Below are positions 8,175-57,900 of a stretch of DNA of 64,000 nucleotides, piece after piece. Below the pieces are notes generated by a model, which worked only from the letters and a program-made list of their open reading frames with translations, did not search any database and was not told where the DNA came from. The position numbers were made by a program, and so were the translations under genes. The stretch covers positions 3,562,799 to 3,626,798 of the forward strand of contig MU053588.1 of NCBI GenBank assembly GCA_013239625.1, written 5' to 3'. This DNA comes from Lama guanicoe (lineage: Eukaryota). Numbering within the stretch: position 1 is the first letter of the stretch; every line of letters starts with the position of its first letter.

Positions 8175-9847
8175 ATGGGACCCCAGCATCTGAGCCCTGT
8201 GCAGCTGCTCTGTCTCCTAGGGGCCATCTCCACTCTGCCTCGTATGATCTGAGGGGCTGGATGCTTAAGGAACGTGTTGGTGGGGGAGGGGGGGAGGGCG
8301 GGGTGCTGGATTCATGTCACTGGTGGGAAGGAAAGTTGGATATCTAGGTTCCTCGGGGGCAGGATCTGTGGAGGCTGAGCTCTTGATGGGCATTTCAGGG
8401 GCTGAGAAGGCAATGTGAGGGGCAGATGACTGGAATAACATTCTCTCTTTAGGGGCTCGAGCTCTTCTGTGCTATGAAGCAACAGCCTCACTCTTCAGAG
8501 CTGTTAGTCTCCATAACTGGAGGTGGCTTCTGATGAGGAGTGCGGTGTGTAGGCTGAGCGAGGGCTGTGAGGAGACATTGGTGTTCATCGAGACAGGTGA
8601 AGGGGAGTGACTGTGCTCATTTTTTTGTTTCGCTTGCTCTTTTGACCCCCACCCTCATTGCCAGCACCCAGGGACCCTGCACTTGAGTTCCAGTTATTGA
8701 CCCTGTTATATCTTTGGGGACAACATTAAGATACCAACCCAGCTGGTTGTGATGGGGGCTGGATAAGAGGGCAGAACCCAGGAGAAGGGGGGAACTCTGG
8801 GAGAGAAGAAAAGTCTGGGACACAAGGGAGAGAGGAGCAGAGAGGCTCCTGTGGGGTGAGGAGTAAGGAGAGACAGCTGGAGACCTGGGGATCTGGGCCC
8901 TGTGTCTCTGCAGGGGATGGACACTGGGGTAGGGGAGGCAAAGTTGGTGACAGAGCAGAGTGAGCAGGAGGAGCAGGGTGGAGGGGGAGGTTGGGAGATT
9001 GGACCAGGTGTGGTCAGCGACACTGATCGGAGCTCTCTCATCTTCTGCTTCTCAGGGACCAGAAAGGGAGTTGTGGGTTTTAAAGGCTGCAGCCCAGCCT
9101 CATCTTACCCCGCGCAAGTCTCCTATCTTGTTTCACCGCCCGGATTGTCCATTGCCTCCTACAGCCGCATCTGCCGGAAGTATCTCTGCAATAACCTCAC
9201 CAACATGGATTCTTTTGTGAAACTTGAGGCCAATACCCCCAAGACTTCAGCATTTTCTTCCCATGGCTGCCCAACTTGTGTGGGCGAGCACTCTAAGAGT
9301 TGCCTCCCAAATTTTGTCAACACTGAGCCTTGCCCCAGGGATGCCACCAAGTGTTACAGTTCCACCTTAAAATTTCAGGCAGGTGAGAGGAAAGAAACGT
9401 TCTTTCTGAAAAGCCTGCTCTGTGCTAGGTGCAGTCTGGTGCTTTCCCATCTCTGAGGGAGGCAGGTGGGATTTGGACAGGGGATTGGGGTTGCAGCACA
9501 TCATTCCATGGAGGAGGGGGGAAGGTGACTGGTGCCCAAGTCTTTGCTGGGAGAGTGGGTGTCCTAGTTTGTGAGGGGTGTCTGGGAGGAGAAGGGCATT
9601 TGAATCTTGAAAGTGTCCCTCACTCCTCCTCCTCTTCCTTACAGGTTCCCTCAATACCACCTTCCTCCTCATGGGCTGTACTCGTGAACATACCAGAGCT
9701 TTAGCAGATTTTCACCATATTGGGAGCATCAGAGTGACTGAGGTCATCAACGTCTTAGAAAGGGTCCAGCCTGCTGGCGCGGAGCCCTCTAGTCGGAGTC
9801 CTGCTTGGGGCATCCTCTTAGGGCTCCTGCTTGCCTTCAGGGACTGA
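8175..9847 (+). CDS. LYPD4: Ly6/PLAUR domain-containing protein 4 (sperm acrosomal LU protein), intact, 246 aa
   Basis: Exons 8175-8241, 8453-8596, 9056-9382, 9645-9847 (741 nt in total). Protein MGPQHLSPVQLLCLLGAISTLP...GVVGFKGC...YLCNNLTN...CPTCVGEH...AWGILLGLLLAFRD*. AATAAA at 9895-9900. Confidence 0.97.
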
Positions 9848-10257
9848 CGATCCAACTGGACCAGACAAGCACCCATACCCCTTTCATGTAGCCAAATAAA
9901 GTTATAATAGAGTTGCCTTTCTGCTTTGTCCTGTGGTCCATGAGGGTTATGGAGGTGTGACACATCTGGGGAGGGTGAGACAGGACCAGGGAGGTGGGGG
10001 CAGGGGGTGGGGTGGGAGAAGGGCAATGGGCAGTGCTTGTGGTGAAGGGGGCAGGGAGCTGGGGATGAGGATCACTGGCCAAGTGACAGTGTCATGCCCA
10101 GCATCCAAGAAGAACCCAAACATTCCCCTTCTCCTCCTCCTGCTGGAGACCTGAGCTCTAGCCTGGGTTACGCTACTGACTTAGAGATCCTGGCCAAATC
10201 TCTCCCGTTTTCTGGGCCTCCATTTCCTCCCCTTTAAGATGAAGGCCTTGGGGATTG

Positions 10258-35417: not shown

Positions 35418-35424
35418 TATAAAA
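35418..35424 (+). promoter_or_regulatory. TATA box of CD177
   Basis: TATAAAA about 55 bp upstream of the ATG. Confidence 0.65.
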
Positions 35425-35474: not shown

Positions 35475-38400
35475 ATGAGCCCTGCCCTGCTGCTGGCCCT
35501 CCTGGGCATCACCCACACCCTGACCGGTGCGTGAGGACCCCAGCCTGGGAGCGGATTCCCCTGGAGGATCGGCTAAGATAGATTTGCTCTTCCCGCCTCA
35601 GGAGTGCACGCCCTGATCTGCAACCACGGGAGGAAGGAAACCGTGAGGGACATATTGGAGCTGCCTCTCCAGTGGACGACCAGCCAGGAGTCCTGTGAAG
35701 ATGGCTGGGGCTGCCAGGAAGTTCTGCTGCTCATTGAGAATGGTGAGAAGGGCCCCATGAGCCCCACGCCTGACCCCCACCCTCTCCTGTGCAGACACCC
35801 CTATCCCCACCCAGTCCTACCTGCATTCTGTCTACAAACTCAGAAGAGACAGGCCATGACACAGACCCTCTTTGCAGGACCCCAGAGTCCTGACCTCTCT
35901 CTCTTTCTCTCTCTCTTTCTGTCCAGAACTCCAAGTGAACTTGCTGATCCTCAAGGGCTGCACCCAGGCGGCGAATCAGGAGGCCCGCGTCACCCAGCAC
36001 AGGACAGGCCCCGGCCTCTCCGCTGTATCCTACACCCACGTGTGCAGGGAGGATCTGTGCAACAATCTCTCCTCCACTGTCCCTCTCCGGGCCCTGCCCC
36101 CACCCACAGGTGCCAGAGGGAGAGGAGGAGGAGGAACTGAAAGGGGCTGTTGGGAGGAGGGGAGCAACGGGACTGAGGGGGTGGGGGAGAGCACACAGGG
36201 ACAGTTCATTTAGAATCCCTCCCTGCCTCTCCCACCCCGTCCACCCCGTCCACCCTCCCCAGCACTCCCTCCCTTAGCACGACTTCTAACAGTCCCGGAG
36301 CAGCAAACTGGACTGGTTGTCTTATGCTCAATCACCCACCTCTGACTCGACTGTGGCGACAGCCCAAACGCGGTGCCCGCCCCTTTTGTCTATGCCATTG
36401 GATTTGGTTTACCTGTGTTCTATTCAGGGTTTGGTACTTCCTCTTCCTAAGTGAAATCGGCTTGTAACTTCCCACTGCCCTTTTTCGTCTGAGATCCTAA
36501 GTCGGGTTCGGAGCGATGGTTGGCATTTCTCTACTCTGTGGCATACTCTGAACACGGGCGCTTGTCTTCTTGGACTGTTGAGTGGAACTTGTGGGGTGAA
36601 GCCAATGGTTCCTCTCAGGGCACCCCTTCTCCACTCGTACTTCCTCCTGTACTCAGTCCCAGGCGCCCCTTCCCAGATCTCAGGGTCCCTCCCCACCTTG
36701 CTCTCTCTCTAGTCACATATCTTGAACTCCCTGCATCCCAGGCCTTCTTAGGAGGAGCCCTAAGATGGCACATTTCAGGAGACTAGGGAGGTTGACTCTT
36801 AGGACCAGCAAAACAGCGCAGTGGGGTGGGTGGGGAGTGGAGGGGTTAAGGAGGAAAGGCAAGCCGTCCAGTCTGAGTCCGGAGCCCTCTCAGTCCTCCC
36901 TCTCTTTCTCTCTCACCTCCCCAGCCCTGGGGTCTGTGCGGTGTCCAGTCTGCTTGTCTACAGCAGGCTGTGGGTCTGCAGCTGAGATGACCTGCCCCAT
37001 CAAGAGCTCGCACTGCTACAGTGGGGTCCTCCTGTTCAGCGGTGAGTGGGACATGGGGGCCCTGTGGGGCACTGAATGGGAATAGGGGGTCTGAGGACCA
37101 TGATCTGAGTCTCTGGGGTGGAAGGGTAGCTGAGTCCTGGGACCCAGAGGAAGATGGGCCTGGCTTCCCAGAGCTGTGCCTCCCCCAGAGGGTTGGCTGA
37201 TCCCAGCGGCAGCATCTCCCTCCCTCTCTCTTTCCACAGGGGCCATCTCTAGCCATCTGAAAGTCCAGGGATGTACATCTCAAGAAGGCTGCAACCTGCT
37301 TAATGGGACTCGGGAAATAGGGCCCATCACTCTGAGGGAGACCTGTGATCCTCTAGGTGAGTGTCACCCCCACAGGACCAAGTGCCCAGTCCCACAGCCT
37401 CGGACCCTGTCCAACACCCCCACAAAGCCAGCTCCCCAAGTCACTCAGATGTTTATCACTCACTCAGGCGGGTGTGATGGGAAGGATTCTCCCAGTAGGT
37501 GCATCAGGTGAGGCTGCCAGTGAGAGGTGTCCAGCCCAAGGGGAGAGAGAGGATGTGTGGCCCAGGGGACAGATCAATAGGACAGGAGCCCACTGGTGGG
37601 TGTTTTCAATGATGCTGAGCTTGACCAAGTTAGGGCAGCCTGTCCAGGTGGGACGGGAGCAGGGGAGCAGGGAGGAAGGTCAGAGGGCAGAGAGGATGGG
37701 CTGCATCGCACATCACCACTTTATCCATGGGATGCAGAAGTGAGTATCAGAATGGAGTGCCTGCTGGTTTCCTAACTGGGAGTGACTCGTTGCTTCCAAT
37801 TCGAACTGTTTTTCCACACCCCTGACTTTGGATAACCTTGGATCTCCCACTTCCCCTGGATCACCCCCACCTGATCCTCACCCATCCCCCACTCATGGCA
37901 CAGGAGCACCCTAGCAAAAGAGAAAAAAGATCAGAGAAAATATGGAGGATGCCCTAGGTATAACAGGGAAAGCAAGAGGCAAATGGGGACACAGGAAGGG
38001 CCCCCACTTACTCATGGAAACCCAGTCTAACTGACACACTGATGGATGAGAGCAGCCCAGACTGTCTTGATGTGAAGCATCCACCGTGGTGAGGAGAGGA
38101 GTAGGGTGATGAGTGGAGCGGGGCCTTGGGAAGTTGGGAGAAGGGCTTTCCCTGTCCGAAATTCAGCGAAAGAGTTGAGTGAGTTCTGCAAATGTTCCTC
38201 TTATTTGAATCTCTCTGGCTAGACTGGGAGCCTTGAGGTCAGAGCCTGGATGTCACTGACACCAAGATTTCCAGCCTCAGGATATTCCTTTTTAATTTTT
38301 TAATTTTTTTACTGGAGGTACTGGGGATTGAACCCAGGACCTCATGCATGCTAAGCATGCGCTCTACCACTGAGCTATACCCTCCCCTGCTATTCTTAAT

Positions 38401-41400
38401 ATATGTCCATATACTGCTAGCTTTCGACATCAAAGTCAGATCTTAGGGGATGGATTTGCCTTTCCTGGTTAAGCTCAGCTCAGTAGCTTAGTAAATATTT
38501 ATCGAGCATCAGCAAGGCCAGGCATCAGAAGCTGGGGTACAATAAGATGGCAGAGGAAAAAAAAAGATAGTAGGGAATAAGTGGAGGACAGAAGGGCATC
38601 CCTGGGAGATAGAACAGATTCTGGAAGGCGTGGGGGTGGGAGAGGACTGGGTGCAAGAGCCCAGATTGCCCCAAATGGGCCACTGCAGGAGCCCATATTG
38701 AAGAAGAACCAAAGAGCTGGAATTTATATAGCCATGACTGCCTTCCTAAGGAATTGGATGATGATCCCAGTGACAGTAGTGGGTGGTCACAATCAGGGAG
38801 AGCATGGGAGTTAAGAGCTTAGTGTCTGAATCAGAGAGACGTGGGTTTCAACTGGATTGTTGTGGTGGTTGTGCAACTCTATACGTTACTAAGAATTGTT
38901 AAGTTGTATAAGTGGGTAGTTTTTATGGCGTGTAAATTATATCTCAATAAAACTTAGGAAAAAAAAAGATGTGGGTTTCTGTCCAGGCTCTGCTGCTGAA
39001 TCAACTTTTGAGGATTACCACCTCTTTGAGCCTCTTTCACCAAGTTCAGGAAGGAGGCGATGATCCCAGACTGTTGGGGGTGACAGAGCATATGCAAAGG
39101 ACCTGGGGTGGGTTTGTGCCTGCCATACATTCAGTGAAGAATCCAGAGGTCAGTGTGGCTCCAGCAGAGTGATTAGGCAGGAGCAGAGCAGGACTTGTGG
39201 ATGGAGAGGTTGGCAGGGGGTGGGTGGGAGCGTAGATCCCGCAGAGCCTTTGGGGCTATTTTAAGGACTTATAATTTTATTCCAAGTGGGATGAGGATCT
39301 ATTGAAGTCTCTTTTTATGGGCATCCTTCTAGCTGCTGATTGGAGAATAGTGTAAAGAGGAGGTGGGCATGGGGGAGGGTACCCCCAGGGAGACTCAGGA
39401 GGAAGCAGGTGAGAGCCTCAGGGTTTGGACCCTGGTAGAAGCAGTGGAGGTGGGGAGAAGTGGGTAGGTTCTGGGGGTATTTTGCAGCTTCAGCCAACAG
39501 GATTTCCTGCTGGGCGCAACATGGGGTGTAAGAGAAAGGGAATTGTCAAGAATGACAGCAATGTTTTCAACTTGAGCAACTGTAGGAAAGGAGGTTGCCT
39601 TTGACAAGCTGGGGAAGATGGGGTGGGTGGGGAGACAGGGGACGAGGCTGGGAGGACAGCGGGAGTCATGATTTTGTCATCCGTGAAGTGGGGAAATGAG
39701 TGGCCCGCCTTCTCAGGGGCTGTTGTGAAGGTTACACATTTGTGGGTGCTGCATGGTCAGCCCTGGGGTTTCTGCATCATGGGATACATCACGGCTGGTT
39801 GTGTGCTGGCCTTAAGAGAAGGTCTAATGGTTTCCCAACTAGACTCCCGAGGGCCACAGGGGCTAAAGTGGCTCAGGATGGACATCCATCCCTCCCTTCC
39901 CCATCATTCACCCCAGGGAGCCAGAATGCCTGAGTTCTGAGCCCAGCTCTGCCAATGGCTAGCAAGCAGGGACAGTGGGCAAGCCACTTAAAAACTCCTC
40001 TGCCTCTGTTTGCCAGCCTGAAAATGGGGATGATGATGATGATGATGACATCGTCTACTTGCAGAGGGAGGGGGTCGCTGTGAGGAAATGAGGCAATCCA
40101 GGTGAGGTGAGCTCTTTGGCAGGCTTAGATGGGTTAATCCATGGAAAGTAATCATGGCAGCTGGAAACACAGTAAATGCTTAGCGCACACAAGGCATTTG
40201 AGTATTTTTGTTTGGAATACAGGATTTCTCAGTTAAAAGGAATATATGATGTCAGGCTACCCTCCTCAATGTCCAGATAAGGACTTTGAGGCCCAGAGAG
40301 AGAAGCAGAGATTGGTCCAGGCTAAGGAAGAGCCATCTGTCTCTCTCATTTCCTCAGGGAAGAACAGCTGTCCTCAAGGGGGGTTGAGAAAGGACGCTGC
40401 AGGTGTTCAAGCAAAAACAGGGTAAAGGAGGGGAGGGCATAGCTCAGTGGTAGAGCATACGCTTAGCATGCACAAGGTCCTGGGTTCAATCCCCAGTAAC
40501 TCCATTAAAAAAAAAAAAGTAGGGTAAAGAATGGGGGTGGGGCTCAGACTTCCAAGGTCCCTTCTAAATCTGAGACTGAGGGACTCAATGGCCAGATTGC
40601 TTGGAGTGTGACTAACAGTGTGATCTCCCCAAGCACAGGACCCTGGAAGGACAGACACAGCTGATCCCTGGCTTACAAAGACCCTGGTAATTCTTTGTCC
40701 ACAGCTCTTCTGTCCTGTCATCGGGGAGTCATGTTGCGGACTTCTGTAAACCTGGCTCAGGAACCGGTTGAATGGACCTCGAATGGGAAGCAGCTGTGTG
40801 ATCCTGGGGAAGTGTGTCAGGAGACACTTCTGCTCATAGATGTAGGTGCGTGAGCTGTGCAGGAGAGCAAGACCCCTGCACGGGGTCCTGGGTCTCCCTA
40901 CCCTGGATTCTTTCTCCTGAATTTCCTGCCTGGTTCTCCTCATCCCAGCAGTTCTAAACTCAACTCTTCCTCTTTCTGTGCCTTGGTTTCCCTTTCAGAA
41001 AACTAGGGGTGAGGTGATGGCAATAATAGTTTGCTGGGTAGTTGCTGGGATATATCTGATGGTCCAGGCAAAGGGCTAAGAACAGAGCTCGCACAAAGTA
41101 AACTCAATGACTTCATCCAAGGTCTAATGAGCGACTTGTTATGTGCCAGGCACTGTGTTAGATGCTGTAGATCCCACTGCATCTGCCTTCTTGCAGCTTT
41201 ATTGCCAGTGGGGAAGCAGGAGGAAAAAAAAAGAGTAAGATACGGGTGTGAAGATAAGAGCTATGGAAAGAAATCCAGCGGGAAAAGGAGATAGGGAGAG
41301 TGAGGTAAAGGTTGCAATTTGAAAACAGGTGCTCAGGGGATGCTCTACTGAGAAGGTGACATTTGAGCAAGAACTGAGAGGTGGCAGATCTGGGAGGCAG

Positions 41401-42394
41401 CTCTGGCCCCAGTCTTCACCCTGCACTCAGCAGGACCTGTGCTCTTGCATTGGGGGGACCGGCGTCCCCCTCCGCCTGCTGAGCACTGAGGAATCCCTGG
41501 TTTTGCCCCTCCCCCAGCGCAGCTTTCACTCTCTCATCTCTCAGGACAGAAATCACTCCTAGTGGGGAGCAAAGGCTGCAGCAAAGCCAGGACACAGGAT
41601 TCCCAGCCTATCTCCATACACTCGAGACCCCCAGGAGTGCTCGTTGCCTCCTATGCCCGGTTCTGCTCCTCTGACGGGTGCAACAGCGCCAGCAGCAGCA
41701 GTGTCCTCTTGAACTCCCTCCCTCGTCCAGGTACGGGATCCCAGCGGGCTGGGTGGGACCAGGGGTATGGACAGGTGGGGCCCCAGAGACACAGACTCTG
41801 GGGGTCCAGGAGGGTGGCTGCTGCTAAGAGCAGAGCTGTGCACCCCAACCTTCTCTCTGCTTTCCAGCTGCCCCTGCCTCAGGAGACTTGCACTGTCCAA
41901 CCTGTGTGTCGTTTTTTGGATCCTGCCCAGAAAACTCTGAAACTGTTAGGTGCCCTAGCGGCACCACTCACTGTTACAAGGGTTACATTGCTCTCCAGGG
42001 AGGTGAGTGCTGCGGGTCAGGTCCCAAGGATGAAGGGGCTGGGGCCTGGCTTAATTGGTCCTCAGGTGGGAGGGTGTTTGAGACTCTGAGTTATGGGGAG
42101 AAGGGGCTGGGGACCCAGGTGTTCTAGGTCTGAGGGAGGATCAGGCTCTTAGCTTGATCTCCTGGTCTGAGGCGGGAGACGGGTGTCTAGGAGTCCTAGG
42201 GTTCAGGAATTTAAGTGTGGGGAAATTTGAGCCCTCTCTGACTCCATGTTCATTCTCTAGGTGGGCTGAGCATCTCATTGAACGTTCAGGGCTGCGTGGC
42301 TCAACCTTCCAGCTCCTTGTTGAACCGTATTCAGAATATTGGGGTCATTTCCGTGGCTGAGAAGCGTGATGATGAGAATGAGCCTCTAGAATGA
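35475..42394 (+). CDS. CD177: CD177 antigen (NB1/PRV-1), four LU domains, predicted 401 aa; stops before the GPI signal because of a last-exon frameshift
   Basis: Exons 35475-35526, 35602-35742, 35927-36109, 36925-37041, 37240-37356, 40705-40845, 41545-41730, 41868-42002, 42261-42394; all phase 1 and [15 protein letters not shown]...LPLQWT...[11 protein letters not shown]...NLAQEPVEW...[38 protein letters not shown] at 42743-42748. Confidence 0.93.
38288..38388 (-). mobile_element. tRNA-Ala-derived SINE
   Basis: Near-consensus antisense copy ggaggtactggggattgaacccaggacctcatgcatgctaagcatgcgctctaccactgagctataccctcccc. Confidence 0.9.
40429..40519 (+). mobile_element. tRNA-Ala-derived SINE
   Basis: Consensus plus poly-A tail, flanked by agggtaaag direct repeats. 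Confidence 0.88.
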
Positions 42395-42899
42395 GTTTCT
42401 ACTCCCAGCTGGAGCTGCTCCTGCCCCCTACCTGGCTTGGGTGGTAGGGCTGGGGCTATCTCTAGCCCTGTGGTGTGGAGCGCCCTCCCTGCTCATCCCA
42501 TTTTCTCATGATTCTTAGCTCCTGCTGACCCCCAGTTCCCAGCCCTCCCTCTGACCTCATAACTAAACAGTCTTGGACACTGAATTATTTCCCCATCCTC
42601 TACACGAATTATCATCCACCCCCATGCCCCGCCCCCCATCACATACTATATGACCTGATGACAACATATGGAAAGGTCTGGAAGCAGCAGAACTTGCCCC
42701 ACGGGTGACTGGACAGTCAAGCAGTGGCCACATGTGAGTGATAATAAAGACATTGTCCTTTCCCTAAATGCTGGGTTTTCTCTATGTGAGGGGAGGGCAG
42801 GACAACCAGAGATCTGGCACAAAGAAGGAGAGGAATCTGGCGAGAGATTCACCATCTCAGGATGCTCCTTCACTGGTCTGGTCCACATCCCCATTGGAC

Positions 42900-45800
42900 T
42901 AGCTTGGTGGCAGCAGAGCCATCAGGATGCTGCAGCCAAAAGTACTTGGGTATCACTGTGACTTGGGAGGTGAAGGTGCATCATGACCAATGAGGCTTCT
43001 ACCCCAGCACAAACAGGGGGCTCACCCCACTTGAATAACTTGACATAAGGGTTGGTATGAAGCAGAGAAACAAGAGGGTTTGCACAGTTTCCTGAGGCTG
43101 ATATCATTGGGTCTGTCATCATCATAGGCCTGAAAAGCTGAGGAGAGGTCATTGCTATTACTAGAATCTCGAGGGATTGGTGTTTAGAGAGGGCTGCTTG
43201 ACAGGAGCTGTGATGTCAGGTGAAAATCTTTCCAGTCTACAGTGATACTGCAGGGAGGGAGCTGGGGAATTAGTACCCCACTATCAGTCAGTGTCCTCCC
43301 TCTGGTCTCCTACTGGAGCTCCCTGTGGACTGAACACAGCTGGGAGGCAGGAGAGCTCATTGGCAGTTCCCACAAGGGGAGAAGGGGAGACAGTGAATCC
43401 AGAGAAGGAAGCAAAAAGTGTTCAGAAGAGTCCTTTCCTTCGTCCAGATGAAAATCAGAGTCCTTAACATAGAAGACACACAATTCACATCCATTACTTA
43501 ATTATGGTGCACTACACCAATCAAGGAATCATACACCCACAGCATTAGATGACCAATTCTTTATGTACCACAGTGAGAGGAAGATGGGGAAAAAACATCA
43601 ACCAAAGCTGCGAAGTGTATAACTGGTGGTAATCAGAGCTGCCATCTTCTACCACCCATTCTGTTTTCTTACCAGCTGCCAACACCTTCTCTGGACAATT
43701 GTGTGATGCAAATTTTCATTCTTATGGGAAGTGAGTGTTTGATGATCTTGTCCTTATTGGCTGTTGGCCACTTTCTGATGAACATGGCCATGGGCAGAGG
43801 AAATATTACCCCCAATGTGTCCCCTGGCTTTCATAGTCCTCCTTGACCCAGCAAGCCAACCTCTCTGTGGTAGTCAGATCCCCTCTGGCGATCAGCAGAG
43901 TGGCCCTCTTCTTTGTCCACTGTTTCAGCGGCACAAGGAGCACAAAATGGCAAGGGGGCAGTCCTGGCTTCCAACTGATTAGAGCTATGATGGGGTTCCT
44001 CACCCACACCAAGCCCAAAGTACAGAGACCAGAAGCAAAAATTCTTTAAGTGGGTTGTTAGGTATACTAGTGGGAGGGGACACTCCCTTACCCTCCCCTT
44101 GCATTCTGGCTATGGGAGAGATGGCATGATAGACTGGCCACTGGTTCGAGTCATACAGCATCTCCTTCTGGGTGGCAGGGTACTGCCTCTCTCCTGGTGC
44201 CCTCATAAGCCATCATGGCCACTCTACCCTTCCGAAAAGCCAACTGTCTCTGTGTAGTGGGGCACCTGGGAAGATCAGTGAGCTCCATGGGTGTGAGTTC
44301 ATTGCCTCACTTCTTTTACCTTAAAATACGTCTCCTAGTTGGAAGCAATACTTCATAGGATACTACAGCAACAGAACAGACATCTTCTAAGATCCCAAAT
44401 GACAGTGTTGACAGAAGCCCTGAGTACAAGGCAGGCAAACCAGAACCTGCAGTATGTATTTATCTCTGTGCGGGAAAAGCTCAGTCCCCTCAAGCATGGG
44501 GTATTTCCAGGCTGAGGGTTGGCCTCTGCCTTTGTTGGTTTGGGCACTGAGCACAGTCAGCAGGCCGGTCACCTTGAGGAGAGTGAGCCTATTTGTTGAC
44601 ACAGCGTGGTGTCTCCACCACCCACATGGCCATTTTACACATGGGCTCAGTGAGCAAGCACCGATGGAAAAGAAGCTGTCTGACACTGTCCACTGGGTAC
44701 CAAGAGCTTCCTGCTCAGGGAATGAGTTCCGGTGGGCATTCCTGTGTGATGTGAACATCTTCACAGTCTGTGCCCAACTGCAGAGGACCATTCTCATATC
44801 TTCTCTGTCTTCATTTTTTGCTTTAATTCTTTCCAAGTACTTAACCAAGTGGTTCACCATAGGTCCATGCAGTAGTGGACCTGAGGACATCTCTCTGTGC
44901 TTCTCGGGGGCCTGAATATAGGCACATCTCATTTGATGGTGCTTTGTAAGGATTAATAAACCTAATTACCTGCACTCCCCCACTCCCCCANNNNNNNNNN
45001 NNNNNNNNNNNNNNNNNNNNNNNNNNNNNNNNNNNNNNNNNNNNNNNNNNNNTTACCTTCTTTGTCTCCTCAGCTCATTTCGCTCATCTCTGTCGGTTGG
45101 CGGCCCCGGGGGGGGGGGGGGTGGGAGGTGTTCCAGTTACCTATTCCTATTATACATTCTGGGATGACATAAATAACAGGATGAGTCTGTGGTCCTATGA
45201 GGCCCATTGGGAAGGAGACTTGAGCCAAAATTCCTTCTACACCATGACCTTGCTCACTGCGGCAATAAGCGTCCACCAAAACCCATCATCCAAATAATAT
45301 TCCCAGGGTCTGAGCACTTATTTCCCTTTAACCAGTGCTCAACTCCTCCAGATAAATGACACCCAGTCTTTCTGGTGTAACGGAAGATTCACTGTCTACA
45401 CCCATGGTTGCATTACAGGGTCCTTCTCAAACAGACCCAGCTTCTCCACTCATTCATGGGGCTCAAGGTCTATGAACTAGCTTGGTCTGGGAACTAGATC
45501 AGTGGTAGATCACATACTTAGCATACACAAGGTCCTGGGTTCAATCCCCAGTACCTCCATTAAAAACAAAAAGAAGTCACAAATTCTCATCATGGTGACC
45601 CATGTTTCCATCAGAGCTAGAAAATTCCCTGCACTTTTAGGGACCCCTTGGTCATTTAGCTTCACCACAGATTCCTGCCTCTCAAAACACTCTGATGACA
45701 TTTTTGCTCTGTGGCTTGTTCCAGTGATTGGGGCCATGTTGTCTCTGCATACCCAGTGTCACCACTTGGCCACTCCCAAGTCCTCTTTTTCCAGCAATTC

Positions 45801-52749: not shown

Positions 52750-54884
52750 ATGGGGACCTGCTATAACCAGGGTTTGCTGCTCCTCTTTCTCCTAGGAGCT
52801 CCGACCTTGACCTGTATGTACTGGGGCAGTTGGGGGAGGCAGCTGGGTCACAGAGGATAGATTGCTAGTGAGAAAGCAGTGATTTTGGGGCCCACAGAGA
52901 AGGGCAAATTCTTATCTTTATCTCATGTTCTCCCCATTAGTACAAAATTTGAAATGTCAAAAGGCTACATTCAAGGGTATAGAAGAGGATCCAAGAGACA
53001 CCTTTAACTGGACCACAGAGAAAGTTGAGACTTGTGACAATGGGGCACTGTGCCAGGAAACCGTGCTAATGATTAAATCAGGTAAATGCGAAACAGGCAG
53101 TTGGGTTTGCAGTGGGGAGGTGATTATGTCCATATTAATGCTGTTTCCCCCTTGCCCAGGTCAAACTTTAGGCCCCCCACCCACTTTTCTTCCCTTTTAT
53201 CTCACTGCAGGAATCAACACAGTAATTTTGGCCACTAAAGGCTGCAGCTCGGAGGGGACACCAGAAATACTGTTTGTCCAGCACGCTCCACCCCCTGGCA
53301 TATTTGTGGTCTCCTACAGTAACTACTGTGAGGAGCCCCTTTGCAACAACAGAAAGGACTTATATGAGATATGGAGTCCAGAAGAGACCCCAGGTACCTT
53401 GGGAGGGGAGAGACGGGTGCTAAGAGGAACTCTCTGCACCCCTGAAAAATGGTAGGTCTTCTTTCTTTGTGTTCTTACTTGGCTTAGGTCCAAGTGGGCC
53501 ACAGACAAAAGGACCTCAGACCTTTATGCCCGTCTTTCTTCTTCTAAATTGTCACCTTGAGTTCCATAAACTGCTCCGAGCAGAGGGAACTCAGTAAAGG
53601 CTGGAGTGTAAATTGGGTTTTGTGTTTATTAAGCAGTAGAGGTTTCTGAGCAGGGCGGTGGCACCAGCAGTCTAACAGCTATTGCTTCCCCATTGCTGCA
53701 TGACCCCAGCCCAGTTCCCCCATTTGTCCCCACGGCCTATAGTAATTTGGCCCTGTCTATCTTCTCAGCTCATTGCCTTCTCTTCCCACTCTCATTTACT
53801 GTGTTCTAGCTGGGCTAGTATTCAAAATATTTAACCAGTCAGAATGGATGCTGGCTATAAAAAACAGTCCAGCCCTACCTGTGCCCACCAGATGAATATC
53901 AGCACTGCAATTTCTCACAATTCCCCAATCCATCCATCAAGTTGGTTCCCAATGCCAGGCCTTTGTCCTTGTTGTTTCTTTTGCTACCCTCACCCAACCC
54001 CCATTTTCACATAGCTAACCTCTGTTCATCCTCCATCTCAACTCAGGTGTCAGCTGTGTGAAAATACTTAACTGAGTTATTTTAGGTAGTTAGGTACTCC
54101 ACCATTTCTTTGCCCCTACACCTTGGACACCATGCCTACTGAGTTGTATTGTAGTTAATTACTTACATGTCTGTCTCCATCAAGACAATGACCCTATATG
54201 GCAGGAACTGTGTCCTTTTCATTTCTGTAGCTCCACACCCAAGCACAGACTTTGGAAGTCATGTTGGGTTCAGCTGGAGATGGTGGGGAGGTTGTAGTAA
54301 TAGGCCTTGATTAGAGTGGCACCAGCAGGGAAGACTCAAGGAAGTGAAGGCAGCAAGGAGAGACAACGCTAGAGGCAGGCCTCACTCTTAATTGTCCCTC
54401 TCTTTCCCCCTTCAGCTTCCAGCGAGTCAGCAACCCTCTTCTGCCCAACCTGTGTGGCTTTGGGGACCTGTTTGAATGCTCCTTCTCTTCCCTGTCCCAA
54501 TGGTACAAATCGATGCTATCAAGGAAAACTTCAGGTCACTGGAGGTAAATTGAATATCTGATGGTTTCAGAGGCCAAAAAGTGAGACATCTGAGTGTAGC
54601 CCAAAAGATTCTGTCACTCAGGGTCCTGGGAATAGGGAAGATGGGATTCCTCTCTGATTTCCTAAAATATCTATGTGTCTCCCCATCTTTCTTGTTCCAT
54701 AGGAGGCCTCAACACACCTTTGGAGATCAAAGGCTGTACATCCATAACTGGTTGCAGGCTGATGTCTGGGGTCTACACAGTAGGCCCCATGTGGCTGAAG
54801 GAAGTATGTCCGTTCAAGACTCTCACTCCCCGAAAGGTTGAAAATGCAGCCATGTGGCCTCCCACTTCACCTCGGAGGTTAGAG

Positions 54885-54921
<37 letters not shown>

Positions 54922-54938
54922 AGCTGCTTGTCCGTTGA
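52750..54938 (+). CDS. TEX101: Testis-expressed protein 101 (GPI-anchored LU protein), intact, 250 aa
   Basis: Exons 52750-52813, 52941-53081, 53211-53393, 54416-54544, 54703-54938 (753 nt). FNWTTEKVETCDNGALCQET, ILATKGC, PPGIFVVSYSNYCEEPLCN, CPTCVALGTC, GPMWLKEVC. AATAAA at 55052-55057. Confidence 0.96.
54888..54920 (+). repeat. Coding (CTG)11 repeat, poly-Leu in the TEX101 GPI signal
   Basis: CTA followed by 11 CTG codons gives 12 consecutive Leu. Confidence 0.95.
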
Positions 54939-57900
54939 GGAGGTGCTTCTGGTCCCAGTCACTGGACACCTCTTTTGACGTCATCAGCAGGTTGAGGAAC
55001 AGGTGGAGATCTGAGGAACAGAGAGTTTCTGTGGATGTATTTGATATTTCTAATAAAGTTTCTGCTGTGATTTGTGTATGCCTCAAGACTAGAAGTGGAG
55101 TTATAATGCTGAAAGGGCCCTCAAAATCCATCTTCTCCAACCTACACATTTTGCAAGAAGGGAATCAGAGATCTCGAAAAGCACAGTGAATTTCTCACAC
55201 TTACATAGCTATGGGCAGAGCCAAGACCAGAACTTAGATATTTTGACCCAGAGTCTGGTTTTTCTTTCATTTTAATGGGCTCCCTTCTCTTGCCAGCTGG
55301 ACAAGAGACTAACATTATCTGCCTCTAGAATATTCCTAACCCAATTCTTAAGGCCAGAGTCATCTGCTTTGGGGTTCCCTGGGAAGTGTGGCAGAATGAG
55401 AAAAATCAGACCCTAATTCTTCAATTATAATGGGCCCCATCTCCCTCTGTCCTGTTTGTCCCTTGTCCACTTCACATCATTCCTTCCCACCTCTGCTGCC
55501 TACTCAGTGCCTCGTCAGTGGACAGGGGAACTTAGGAGGGAGCTGGGGCTCAGTAGAGTATGAGGAATGTGGGCCTAGAACTATTGCGTGCGGAGATTCT
55601 TTTTCAGATTCTTATGCTTATATATTTACTTATTACTCAAGAATACACAAAGTCTATGTTATTGTAAAAGACTCCAGTGATATAGGAGCTGTAAATGTAC
55701 AGAGCAAAGTAAAAGGTAGAGTAAAGGGAACAGACTTTTTTCATTTTTTTTTAAAAAAGAGCTGTGTTGAGGCTTAATTGACATACAGTAAACTACAATG
55801 GGGGTGGGAGGAGAGGCTTTTAATGCAAACTGTTGACCCCTCTCACAAAGGGCAGGGAAGTCTGGTCACAGTATAGTGACCGTTCTTTCTAGAAAGTTCT
55901 CTAGTTCTAACTAATTCTTTGAGGTAAAACCTCACTCCTGCTAATACTTTATCTTTGTTCCTAGGCATCTAGTTCGTTCTCTACTGTGTCAGTTTGGTGA
56001 ATTTCTCCAAAGAGGGAGAGGAAGTACAAACAAATAAAAATTTAACTTAGTGAGGGGACATATAAAGCTGGGAAATTCCAAGCATCCAGAGCTATGGCTG
56101 GTAAATACTATTTGGGGTAAAACACAAAATCAAAAACAAAAAATCAGAAAAGCCAGGTAGGTGTCTCCCATAGGACACTGGCTTTTTAATGGCACTGAAG
56201 ACAGTTGCAGAAGACATTCCTGAGTGAATGGAGGAGGGTCACAGTTTTCAAAAATGTGGCCTATGAATTGTTCTGATATTTAAAAAATTATATGTATCAC
56301 ATGCCAAAGGGTTTTATGCAGTATTTACACATTTCTCAGGCCACAAACTCAAGTGTGCAAACTTTCTAATATTTTAATATAAATATATAAAATATTTATG
56401 TTATTTGTTTTTATGATAATTTTGTTTATAACAATCTCACATCCTACTTAGTGGTTGGTAGAAACTTAACCAGTTTGTACAAACTTCAGTCATGTCAGGG
56501 TTTTCTCAGTCACTTCAGATTTAAGTTCAGTCAATTCAGGGCTTTTTTTCCTTTCCACTCTCCTCACCCAGGGCTCTGCTATAGTGCTGGTGGGGTGCAC
56601 GAGGTGACTGTCTAGTTTTCACCTCTCATGCTGCTCATAATCAAGTTCTTACTGAAGCCTGGTACTTGGCTTCCATTCCTGCTGGTTTCCACTGGAAAAC
56701 CTTCAACCCCATCTGGGCACTCGTGGACATCCACACAGGTCCTGTAAGCTCTGTTGGCCCTCTCAGCTATTTCAGGGCCTCTTCCAACTGCTCGCAAAGC
56801 CCCCTGAGGTGCTTCAGGAATCTGAGGCTGCATAGGCATCCCATGTGGCTGGTGAAATTCCTCCAAGATCTGGAGAAAAGATAATTTCATAGGGACTTAT
56901 TTTTCTGCCAAGGTACTTGGGAAAAAATGGGACCTAGACTCTGGAATTTTTCACCTACCATATACAGATCACTATCATATGTTCTTCTCAAATCTATTGT
57001 TTTTTGGCAACAATCATGCCACAAAGCCTTCATTCTTAGACTGAAACTTGAAAATTCCAAGTCTAACAAGTCAAAGGTTGGGCCTTTGGAATTCCATCTA
57101 CCTCTACTTCAATTTACATAGCCTAGTTTGAAACTTCAAGGCTGAACACGAAGGTATTTCCGGCTCTTTGCATTTCTACGGTAATAGGCCTACTGACTGG
57201 GGGAGAAGGGGGATGTACAAAGAACCGGGGTGTGGGGAGACAACAGTCATAGTGAAATATAACCCTGCCATATGCCTACTCCTTCACCCACCTGGATTTA
57301 GCCTCTCGTTACACATGACATTCATTACTCCCTTCAGGTTGTGTTTGTGTTCTTTCCTCTCTGAAATTCCATCTCTTCTTCCCACCTACCCACCCTAGAG
57401 GTCTCCACTAGACATCTCACTGCTAACTCTAGCAGACCATTCCTGACTTCTCTGGCACCCACTGAGCCCCCTCAGCATAGCCCCAGCACATCTGCTTGCC
57501 TTACTTCAACATTTGACTGTTTCCCACACAATGCACTGTCTGACAAGGTGACAGCACTTTATGGACAGGCGTCATTTGCAACCGCTTTATAACTTAGCAC
57601 CCATTAGATGTGACTGGCAACTTGATGTTATGAGCCTTCCAGAACTGCTTATGGAAGTGAGCCAAACTTCCGCTACACACGCACACACACTCCTCTCCAA
57701 CAGCTAAACGAACCACCACCAACCATCATCAATTACCTTAAACTTGATGCTGATGTGGAGAAAAAAGGCAGTAAGTTCTGGAGGGTAGACAAGAAGAGAG
57801 GCAGAAGACTTTAAGAAGAATGGGCATTGCAAAAAGGTAAGAATCTGAAAATTCCTCTATCTTGTCAATGATGTTGTAGTGGCTGTGTAGTCACACCCTA

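What the first reader, a model, noticed from the sequence alone, without database searches (positions are those of the whole stretch)
42375..42518. CD177 loses its GPI anchor through a 13-nt tandem duplication, predicting a secreted CD177
Seen: the last exon contains agaatgagcctct|agaatgagtttct (42375-42387 and 42388-42400). This shifts the frame and gives ...[11 protein letters not shown] at TGA 42392-42394. Removing one copy restores the frame into an intact hydrophobic tail, [42 protein letters not shown] (TAG 42516-42518). All four LU domains and all splice sites are intact. Established: CD177 is normally a GPI-anchored neutrophil protein that presents proteinase 3 and binds PECAM-1, and stops in a last exon escape NMD. 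Inference: this allele or species makes a soluble 401-aa CD177, possibly a decoy or PR3 sink. The two copies differ at 2 of 13 positions, which argues against a simple assembly stutter.
Basis: partly seen in the sequence, partly recalled or inferred. Interest (0 to 1): 0.85.

Follow-up and report, generated by a model that had tools for sequence, protein, structure and literature searches.

The report
Anchor-less CD177 in llama-type camelids
In South American camelids a 2-base deletion, not a 13-base duplication, cuts the membrane-anchor signal off the neutrophil protein CD177, which is predicted to be secreted whole, and database gene models suggest that dogs and foxes, water buffalo, hippo and pygmy sperm whale lost the same anchor independently.

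Summary
The nine-exon CD177 ends at E401 (TGA 42392-94). All 5 of 5 DNA runs laid (5 organism labels) match the window with no indel, so this is not an assembly error. Old World camel proteins and two spliced camel-type RNA runs carry both repeat copies in frame (15-nt unit, ENEPL/ENELL) plus an extra AG after 42387. The lesion is therefore a 2-nt deletion inside an older in-frame repeat. The stop lies 7-8 residues before the predicted GPI site and after the solved ectodomain. All 26 ectodomain cysteines are kept, so a folded, secreted product is likely. A PR3 sink is unlikely: the PR3-contact Trp (W in 142 of 149 non-camelid entries) is Arg in all 7 camelid entries and in the window. RefSeq silently 'corrects' this frameshift in alpaca. 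Gene models of canids, buffalo, hippo and Kogia also lack the anchor; canids keep theirs almost unchanged. No RNA or protein of the window allele was seen, so early pseudogenisation remains a real rival. New variant of a known kind; interest 0.5.

The parts
35418..35423 (+). TATAAA box-like hexamer upstream of the start codon
   Evidence: function inferred
35475..35526 (+). CD177 exon 1 (coding part; signal peptide)
   Evidence: hydrophobic N-terminus, max KD13 1.99
35602..35742 (+). exon 2; holds S36L (TTG, 35655-35657), the only difference from the alpaca RefSeq model in residues 1-400
35927..36109 (+). exon 3; holds the PR3-contact loop
36088..36090 (+). CGG (Arg119) at the position of human PR3-contact W120
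   Evidence: coordinate counted
36925..37041 (+). exon 4
37240..37356 (+). exon 5
40705..40845 (+). exon 6
   Evidence: its 3' end is read spliced to exon 7 as loose ends of X15 and X17
41545..41730 (+). exon 7
   Evidence: joint skipping 137 nt GT..AG in X15 and X17
41868..42002 (+). exon 8
   Evidence: joint skipping 258 nt GT..AG in X15 and X17
42261..42748 (+). exon 9 (last exon), to the AATAAA
   Evidence: the X17 RNA contig ends at 42744
42375..42400 (+). near-tandem repeat: 13+13 nt here, 15+15 nt in frame (ENEPL/ENELL) in Camelus
42387..42389 (+). site of the 2-nt AG deletion (AGAG to AG) relative to Camelus-type RNA
   Evidence: table 4
42392..42394 (+). premature TGA after E401
42390..42518 (+). 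stranded, out-of-frame GPI signal with its ancestral TAG (42516-42518); 3 substitutions against Camelus-type RNA, 1 of them non-synonymous
42407..42408 (+). cryptic AG that, if used from exon 8, would enter the GPI frame but drop the end of LU4
   Evidence: not seen used in the two Camelus-type RNA runs
42743..42748 (+). AATAAA poly(A) signal, 349 nt after the premature stop

Best explanation
A 2-base AG deletion in the last exon, carried by every South American camelid-type DNA run examined, stops CD177 seven or eight residues before its predicted GPI attachment site, so the gene likely makes a folded four-domain protein that would be secreted instead of anchored on neutrophils. Shown: the deletion, the stop, the intact exons and cysteines, and the in-frame ancestral state in Camelus. 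Inferred: (1) the deletion arose by slippage at the AGAG where two older in-frame 15-nt copies meet; (2) the mRNA escapes NMD because the stop is in the last exon, 349 nt from AATAAA; (3) with a signal peptide and no hydrophobic C-terminus the protein leaves through the secretory route, as engineered human CD177 1-408 does; (4) the loss was tolerated because camelid CD177 had probably already lost PR3 display (W120R predates the camel/llama split), leaving little need for the anchor; (5) any remaining role is that of a soluble ligand-binder for something other than PR3.
For: Deletion and polarity. Real and widespread: 5 of 5 DNA runs; the alpaca RefSeq model is flagged LOW QUALITY and patched at this spot (XP_072822500.1). 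Whole ectodomain kept: human structure 9IGP aligns to residues 22-394; 26 of 26 ectodomain Cys as in Bactrian camel; human omega site is 408 (PMC11316256 passages), and Bactrian W418 aligns with human W418. Last-30-residue hydropathy is 1.02 against 2.19 in Bactrian camel. Human 1-408 is made as a soluble protein from cultured cells, crystallises and binds ligands (PMC13022285 passages and section 8; PMC11316256 passages). A human GPI-signal variant yields soluble CD177 in serum (PMC10931634 Results and Discussion). Constraint on the core: 0 of 27 window-vs-Bactrian differences fall in 116 highly conserved columns (p=5e-5), and 0 of 10 changes polarised to the window lineage (p=0.026). Precedent: 10 of 13 canid records, from 6 species, end in one identical non-hydrophobic tail with the ectodomain Cys and W120 kept; dog and fox differ at 6 of 411 residues. 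Dog CD177 is listed with 3 unique peptides in a salivary-supernatant table (PMC7222850 passages).
Against: No RNA or protein of the window allele was seen; both spliced RNAs are Camelus-type. The constraint test covers the whole branch since the camel split and cannot date selection to after the deletion. A dead gene would be expected to have collected only about 0.1-1.2 further lesions (with an assumed indel rate), so intact exons prove little. Overall amino-acid change (27 per about 820-860 non-synonymous sites, 3.1-3.3%) is not below non-coding divergence (16 of 875, 1.8%; p=0.06). The window carries S36L at a site that is Ser in 26 of 30 reference mammals. Dromedary models are also flagged LOW QUALITY and carry C369W. 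Contigs hide rare alleles, and only 5 of the 14 runs holding >=0.95 of the words were laid. Salivary CD177 could come from shed or lysed neutrophils.
Confidence: 0.55

Rival explanations
1. Early pseudogenisation: anchor loss made the gene a functional null (little expression, or a secreted product that does nothing), and it simply has not had time to collect more lesions.
For: W120R in all camelids; dromedary models LOW QUALITY with C369W and abnormal exon 4/5 junctions; S36L in the window; few further lesions expected even under neutrality; CD177 is absent from neutrophils in 3-5% of healthy people (PMC10931634 abstract).
Against: No change in highly conserved columns on the window lineage; TATA-like box, splice sites and poly(A) signal intact; canids have kept an anchor-less ORF of identical length across 6 species.
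Confidence: 0.3
2. One reading: the soluble form was selected as a decoy or sink for proteinase 3.
For: Soluble human CD177 binds PR3 at about 10 nM and partly inhibits it (PMC5327412 passages); canid, buffalo and hippo anchor-less models keep W120.
Against: The camelid protein has Arg at the core hydrophobic contact W120; inhibition in solution needed a large excess and reached at most 50%. Camelid PR3 was not examined.
Confidence: 0.07
3. Splicing rescue: a downstream acceptor (AG 42407-42408) or a cryptic intron restores the GPI frame, so some anchored CD177 remains.
For: The AG has 11 pyrimidines in the 19 nt before it and enters the GPI frame from exon 8.
Against: The normal acceptor has 14 of 19, comes first, and is the one used in both RNA runs; the rescue product would lack about 49 residues of LU4, including a conserved Cys.
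Confidence: 0.04
4. The allele is a polymorphism or an assembly artefact, or it arose by a 13-nt duplication.
For: Contigs drop rare variants; 3 of 5 DNA runs are flagged as possible sources of the window; the +AG contigs have depth only 3.7 and 5.2.
Against: Five labels in three studies agree, and the RefSeq alpaca model is patched at the same spot; +AG agrees with protein records of all three Camelus species.
Confidence: 0.04

Closest known systems
Human CD177 (NB1/PRV-1/HNA-2; P0060; PDB 9IGP, 9IGO)
   Same: Four LU domains, signal peptide, 56% identity to the alpaca model, alignment over the whole solved ectodomain.
   Different: No GPI signal in frame; Arg for the PR3-contact W120.
Human CD177 c.1291G>A (G431R) allele (PMC10931634)
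   Same: A damaged GPI signal gives a neutrophil-surface-null phenotype with soluble CD177 in serum.
   Different: A missense polymorphism that keeps PR3 co-localisation; here a frameshift removes the signal entirely and appears fixed in a clade.
Camelus CD177 (P0019/P0082 Bactrian, P0076 wild camel, P0081/P0083 dromedary)
   Same: 94% identical; same 15-nt repeat; same W120R.
   Different: Repeat in frame, GPI tail intact; the dromedary models have other defects.
Canid CD177 models (P0130, P0173-P0181), Bubalus (P0133, P0195), Hippopotamus (P0120), Kogia (P0041, P0084, P0085)
   Same: Complete 26-Cys ectodomain that ends in the last exon without a hydrophobic tail.
   Different: Different end points in separate lineages (independent events, inferred); they keep W120; gene models only, not checked on DNA.
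Secreted Ly6/uPAR proteins such as SLURP1 and SLURP2 (recalled, no call)
   Same: LU-fold proteins without a GPI anchor.
   Different: Single-domain, old dedicated genes; not orthologous.

Membership tests
CD177 orthologue | Best database matches are CD177 | tested here: met
   Exon 7 is 100% identical to alpaca CD177 and 92-93% to dromedary and Bactrian CD177; 399 of 400 residues equal the alpaca model
CD177 orthologue | Four LU domains with their cysteines | tested here: met
   Aligns to 9IGP over 22-394; 26 Cys as in Bactrian 1-401; Pfam PF00021 on the alpaca model, 2 stretches passing on their own
CD177 orthologue | Lies in the LU-gene cluster beside TEX101; single copy | tested here: met
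   tblastn finds one CD177 and two more distant LU paralogs at about 8.4-9.4 kb and 52.9-54.8 kb; CD177-TEX101 adjacency in PMC4557993 passages; the names LYPD4 and TEX101 for these neighbours are my recalled labels
CD177 orthologue | N-terminal signal peptide | tested here: met
   Hydrophobic residues 1-22, identical to Camelus; no dedicated predictor was run
GPI-anchored CD177 | In-frame omega site, spacer and hydrophobic tail | tested here: not met
   Stop after E401; tail out of frame
PR3-presenting CD177 | Hydrophobic contact residues L117, P118, W120 | tested here: not met
   V, P, R at these positions; binding itself was not tested
CD177 orthologue | Expressed in neutrophils | not testable with these tools
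   Only Camelus-type RNA contigs were found
Unitary pseudogene | Further disabling lesions or neutral evolution after the first hit | tested here: inconclusive
   None found, but only 0.1-1.2 expected; conserved columns spared over the whole branch
13-nt tandem-duplication frameshift | Outgroup has one copy | tested here: not met
   Camelus has both copies plus AG

The most novel reading that the evidence does not exclude
CD177 has been converted from a GPI-anchored receptor into a secreted protein several times independently in mammals (South American camelids, all canids sampled, water buffalo, hippo, pygmy sperm whale and perhaps others) by last-exon lesions that spare the whole ectodomain, and selection keeps the soluble form. 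The camelid version, having also lost the PR3-contact Trp, would be a natural probe of CD177's PR3-independent, membrane-independent function.
Probability: 0.4. Interest if true: 0.72.

Novelty: new variant of a known kind. Interest (0 to 1): 0.5.

Why it matters
What CD177 is for is still open: some healthy people lack it. Lineages that naturally make only an anchor-less form separate its surface roles (PR3 display, adhesion, signalling) from any soluble role and make that question testable in llamas, alpacas and dogs. In practice, CD177 would not be a surface neutrophil marker in these species, and the RefSeq alpaca protein, patched to look anchored, misleads. If the gene is merely dying, this is one more ordinary lineage-specific loss.

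Tried and rejected
No whole genome is held for this window, so no genome-wide paralog search was possible; within the window there is one CD177. A search with exon 9 found only the three camelid records and no transcript-derived protein ending at E401, which is weak evidence. Rejected: 13-nt duplication, assembly stutter. Ribosomal or polymerase slippage was considered and set aside because there is no homopolymer run at the site. Tail-less models discounted as threshold near-misses, misalignments or isoforms with tail-bearing siblings: P0002, P0005, P0124, P0151, P0057, P0134, P0159, P0073. My quick exon coordinates for the two neighbouring LU genes were off, so their integrity was not assessed. 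No GPI predictor is available; hydropathy and alignment to human omega 408 were used instead. Camelid PR3 could not be fetched; the myeloblastin+camel search gave nothing relevant. No fold or complex job was sent, since a solved human structure covers the ectodomain. Literature: CD177+camel (27 papers, 20 listed), CD177+alpaca (4), CD177+gene loss+mammals+pseudogene (1), CD177+positive selection+LY6 (39, 15 listed) and CD177+canine+GPI (14, 13 listed) showed, from listings, no report of this lesion or of recurrent anchor loss. One search was swamped by general camelid papers. A 2026 camelid immunity review has 0 mentions of CD177 (PMC13343275 passages). Subscription journals and supplementary gene-loss tables were not seen and may list it.

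Full report
Observation. Joining nine exons (35475-35526, 35602-35742, 35927-36109, 36925-37041, 37240-37356, 40705-40845, 41545-41730, 41868-42002, 42261 onward), all with GT..AG introns, gives a 401-aa ORF ending DDENEPLE at TGA 42392-42394. The hydrophobic tail is open in another frame up to TAG 42516-42518. The protein equals the alpaca RefSeq CD177 model at 399 of 400 residues, so the window is from a South American camelid. That model (XP_072822500.1) is flagged LOW QUALITY and reads straight through into the tail, i.e. the annotation pipeline patched this frameshift.

Is it real? A run search listed 14 runs holding at least 0.95 of the sampled words. I laid 5 of them, one for each organism label A-E, from three studies. 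All 5 span the site in one contig with no indel. Three are flagged as possible sources of the window; X8 and X9 are not. Contigs drop rare alleles, so 'fixed' is likely but not proven.

What made it? Not a 13-nt duplication. Bactrian, wild and dromedary camel proteins read [19 protein letters not shown]: both copies are present, in frame. I laid three RNA-labelled runs. Two cover the site; their substitutions match the Camelus proteins, and both have AG put in behind 42387 (contig depth 3.7 and 5.2; codon effects). With their letters the best period is 15 nt at 14 of 15 identity; in the window it is 13 nt at 11 of 13. So an older in-frame five-codon repeat lost two bases at an AGAG junction on the llama-alpaca line. 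Slippage is my inference. The linker is length-variable in other mammals too, for example in the repeated segments of dolphins and humpback whale. The same RNAs confirm the exon 7/8 and 8/9 junctions, and one contig ends at 42744 beside AATAAA 42743, so exon 9 is terminal.

Consequence. Human CD177 is GPI-linked at residue 408 (PMC11316256, passages). Human W418 and Bactrian W418 align, placing the camel omega site near A408/G409, so the window product stops 7-8 residues short. The solved human ectodomain (9IGP) aligns to residues 22-394, and all 26 ectodomain Cys are kept. The new C-terminus is acidic, with peak hydropathy 1.02 against 2.19 in Bactrian camel. The stop is in the last exon, 349 nt from the poly(A) signal; NMD escape follows from established rules. 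Human 1-408 is produced as a soluble protein from cultured cells and crystallises (PMC13022285, passages and sections 8 and 11 part 1). A human GPI-signal variant gives surface-null neutrophils with CD177 in serum (PMC10931634, Results and Discussion). A folded, secreted product is therefore the expected outcome if the gene is expressed. No RNA or protein of this allele was seen.

Function. The PR3 interface centres on CD177 L117, P118 and W120. Among 156 aligned entries (of 161 proteins of 300 aa or more), W120 is Trp in 142 of 149 non-camelid entries and Arg in 7 of 7 camelid entries; the window has CGG. The change predates the camel/llama split and argues against a PR3 sink; binding was not tested. 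Evidence on selection is mixed. For constraint: none of 27 window-vs-Bactrian differences falls in the 116 columns conserved in at least 90% of 30 reference mammals (p=5e-5), nor any of 10 changes polarised to the window lineage (p=0.026); at an 80% threshold 3 of 27 and 1 of 10 do. Against: overall amino-acid change (3.1-3.3% per non-synonymous site) is not below non-coding divergence (16 of 875, 1.8%); S36L hits a site that is Ser in 26 of 30 references; dromedary models are also flagged LOW QUALITY, with C369W at an invariant Cys and odd exon 4/5 junctions. A dead gene would have gathered only about 0.1-1.2 extra lesions (indel rate assumed). The tests cover the whole branch and cannot date selection to after the deletion.

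Wider pattern. Of 147 database entries with a recognisable LU4 end (14 skipped), 21 fell below a hydropathy cut-off for the tail; at least 8 of these are near-misses, misalignments or isoforms with anchored siblings. The credible cases are as follows. Canids: 10 of 13 cluster members, from six species including dog, jackal, wild dog, two foxes and raccoon dog, share one identical non-hydrophobic tail; the ectodomain Cys and W120 are kept, and dog and fox differ at 6 of 411 residues. Bubalus: 2 of 2 species, one record seen on 11 contigs including Logan. Hippopotamus, and Kogia (3 of 3 records). Minke whale, Amazonian manatee, tenrecs and golden mole are weaker. Their nearest relatives (bear, mustelid, cattle, sperm whale) keep the tail, so the events are independent by inference (tree). 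These are gene models not checked on DNA, and there is an ascertainment bias: genes broken upstream are missing from protein databases. Dog CD177 is listed with 3 unique peptides in a salivary-supernatant table (PMC7222850, passages) and was detected at trace level in platelet preparations (PMC6853320, passage). The protein is thus made in dogs, but these data do not show its form.

Known or new. The frameshift is implicit in RefSeq's flag, and soluble CD177 from a damaged GPI signal is known in humans. My searches (listings only) and a camelid immunity review (passages) showed no description of the camelid lesion, of W120R or of recurrent anchor loss; subscription papers and supplementary gene-loss tables were not seen. 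Earlier scan notes list other South American camelid gene losses in this genome, a reminder that plain loss is common; I did not check them.

Verdict. Real lesion, wrong mechanism, plausible secreted product, unlikely PR3 sink. Expressed, secreted, anchor-less CD177: 0.55. Decaying null: 0.30. PR3 decoy: 0.07. Splice rescue: 0.04. Artefact, polymorphism or duplication: 0.04. New variant of a known kind; interest 0.5, rising to about 0.7 if convergent, selected secretion across mammals is confirmed.

Noticed in passing
proteins P0130, P0173-P0181 (Canidae): Canid CD177 models end in an identical non-hydrophobic tail at 410-411 aa across six species, with ectodomain Cys and W120 kept: a clade-wide anchor-less CD177 that looks conserved.
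   Followed up: partly
proteins P0133, P0195 (Bubalus), P0120 (hippo), P0041/P0084/P0085 (Kogia), P0101 (minke), P0223 (Amazonian manatee), P0070/P0074/P0158 (tenrecs, golden mole): CD177 models that stop at or before the hydrophobic GPI segment; not checked on DNA.
   Followed up: partly
window 36088-36090: Camelid-wide Trp-to-Arg change at the PR3-contact residue (human W120).
   Followed up: yes
proteins P0081, P0083, P0017 (dromedary): Dromedary CD177 models are LOW QUALITY or partial, with abnormal exon 4/5 junctions and C369W: a possible independent loss.
   Followed up: partly
window 35655-35657: S36L, differing from alpaca RefSeq and Camelus at a site that is Ser in 26 of 30 reference mammals; probably a private or segregating variant.
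   Followed up: partly
window about 52750-54940: LU paralog (TEX101-like, recalled label) whose last exon has a run of CTG codons near 54890-54925, likely a poly-Leu GPI tail.
   Followed up: no
window about 8176-9850: LU paralog (LYPD4-like, recalled label) upstream of CD177; integrity not assessed.
   Followed up: no
window about 44991-45053: Assembly gap (run of N) about 2.5 kb downstream of CD177; it does not touch the gene.
   Followed up: no
window 42482 and 43011: Variation among window-type DNA runs: G>A in the stranded tail in X8, and a 2-nt deletion at 43011 in X9.
   Followed up: no
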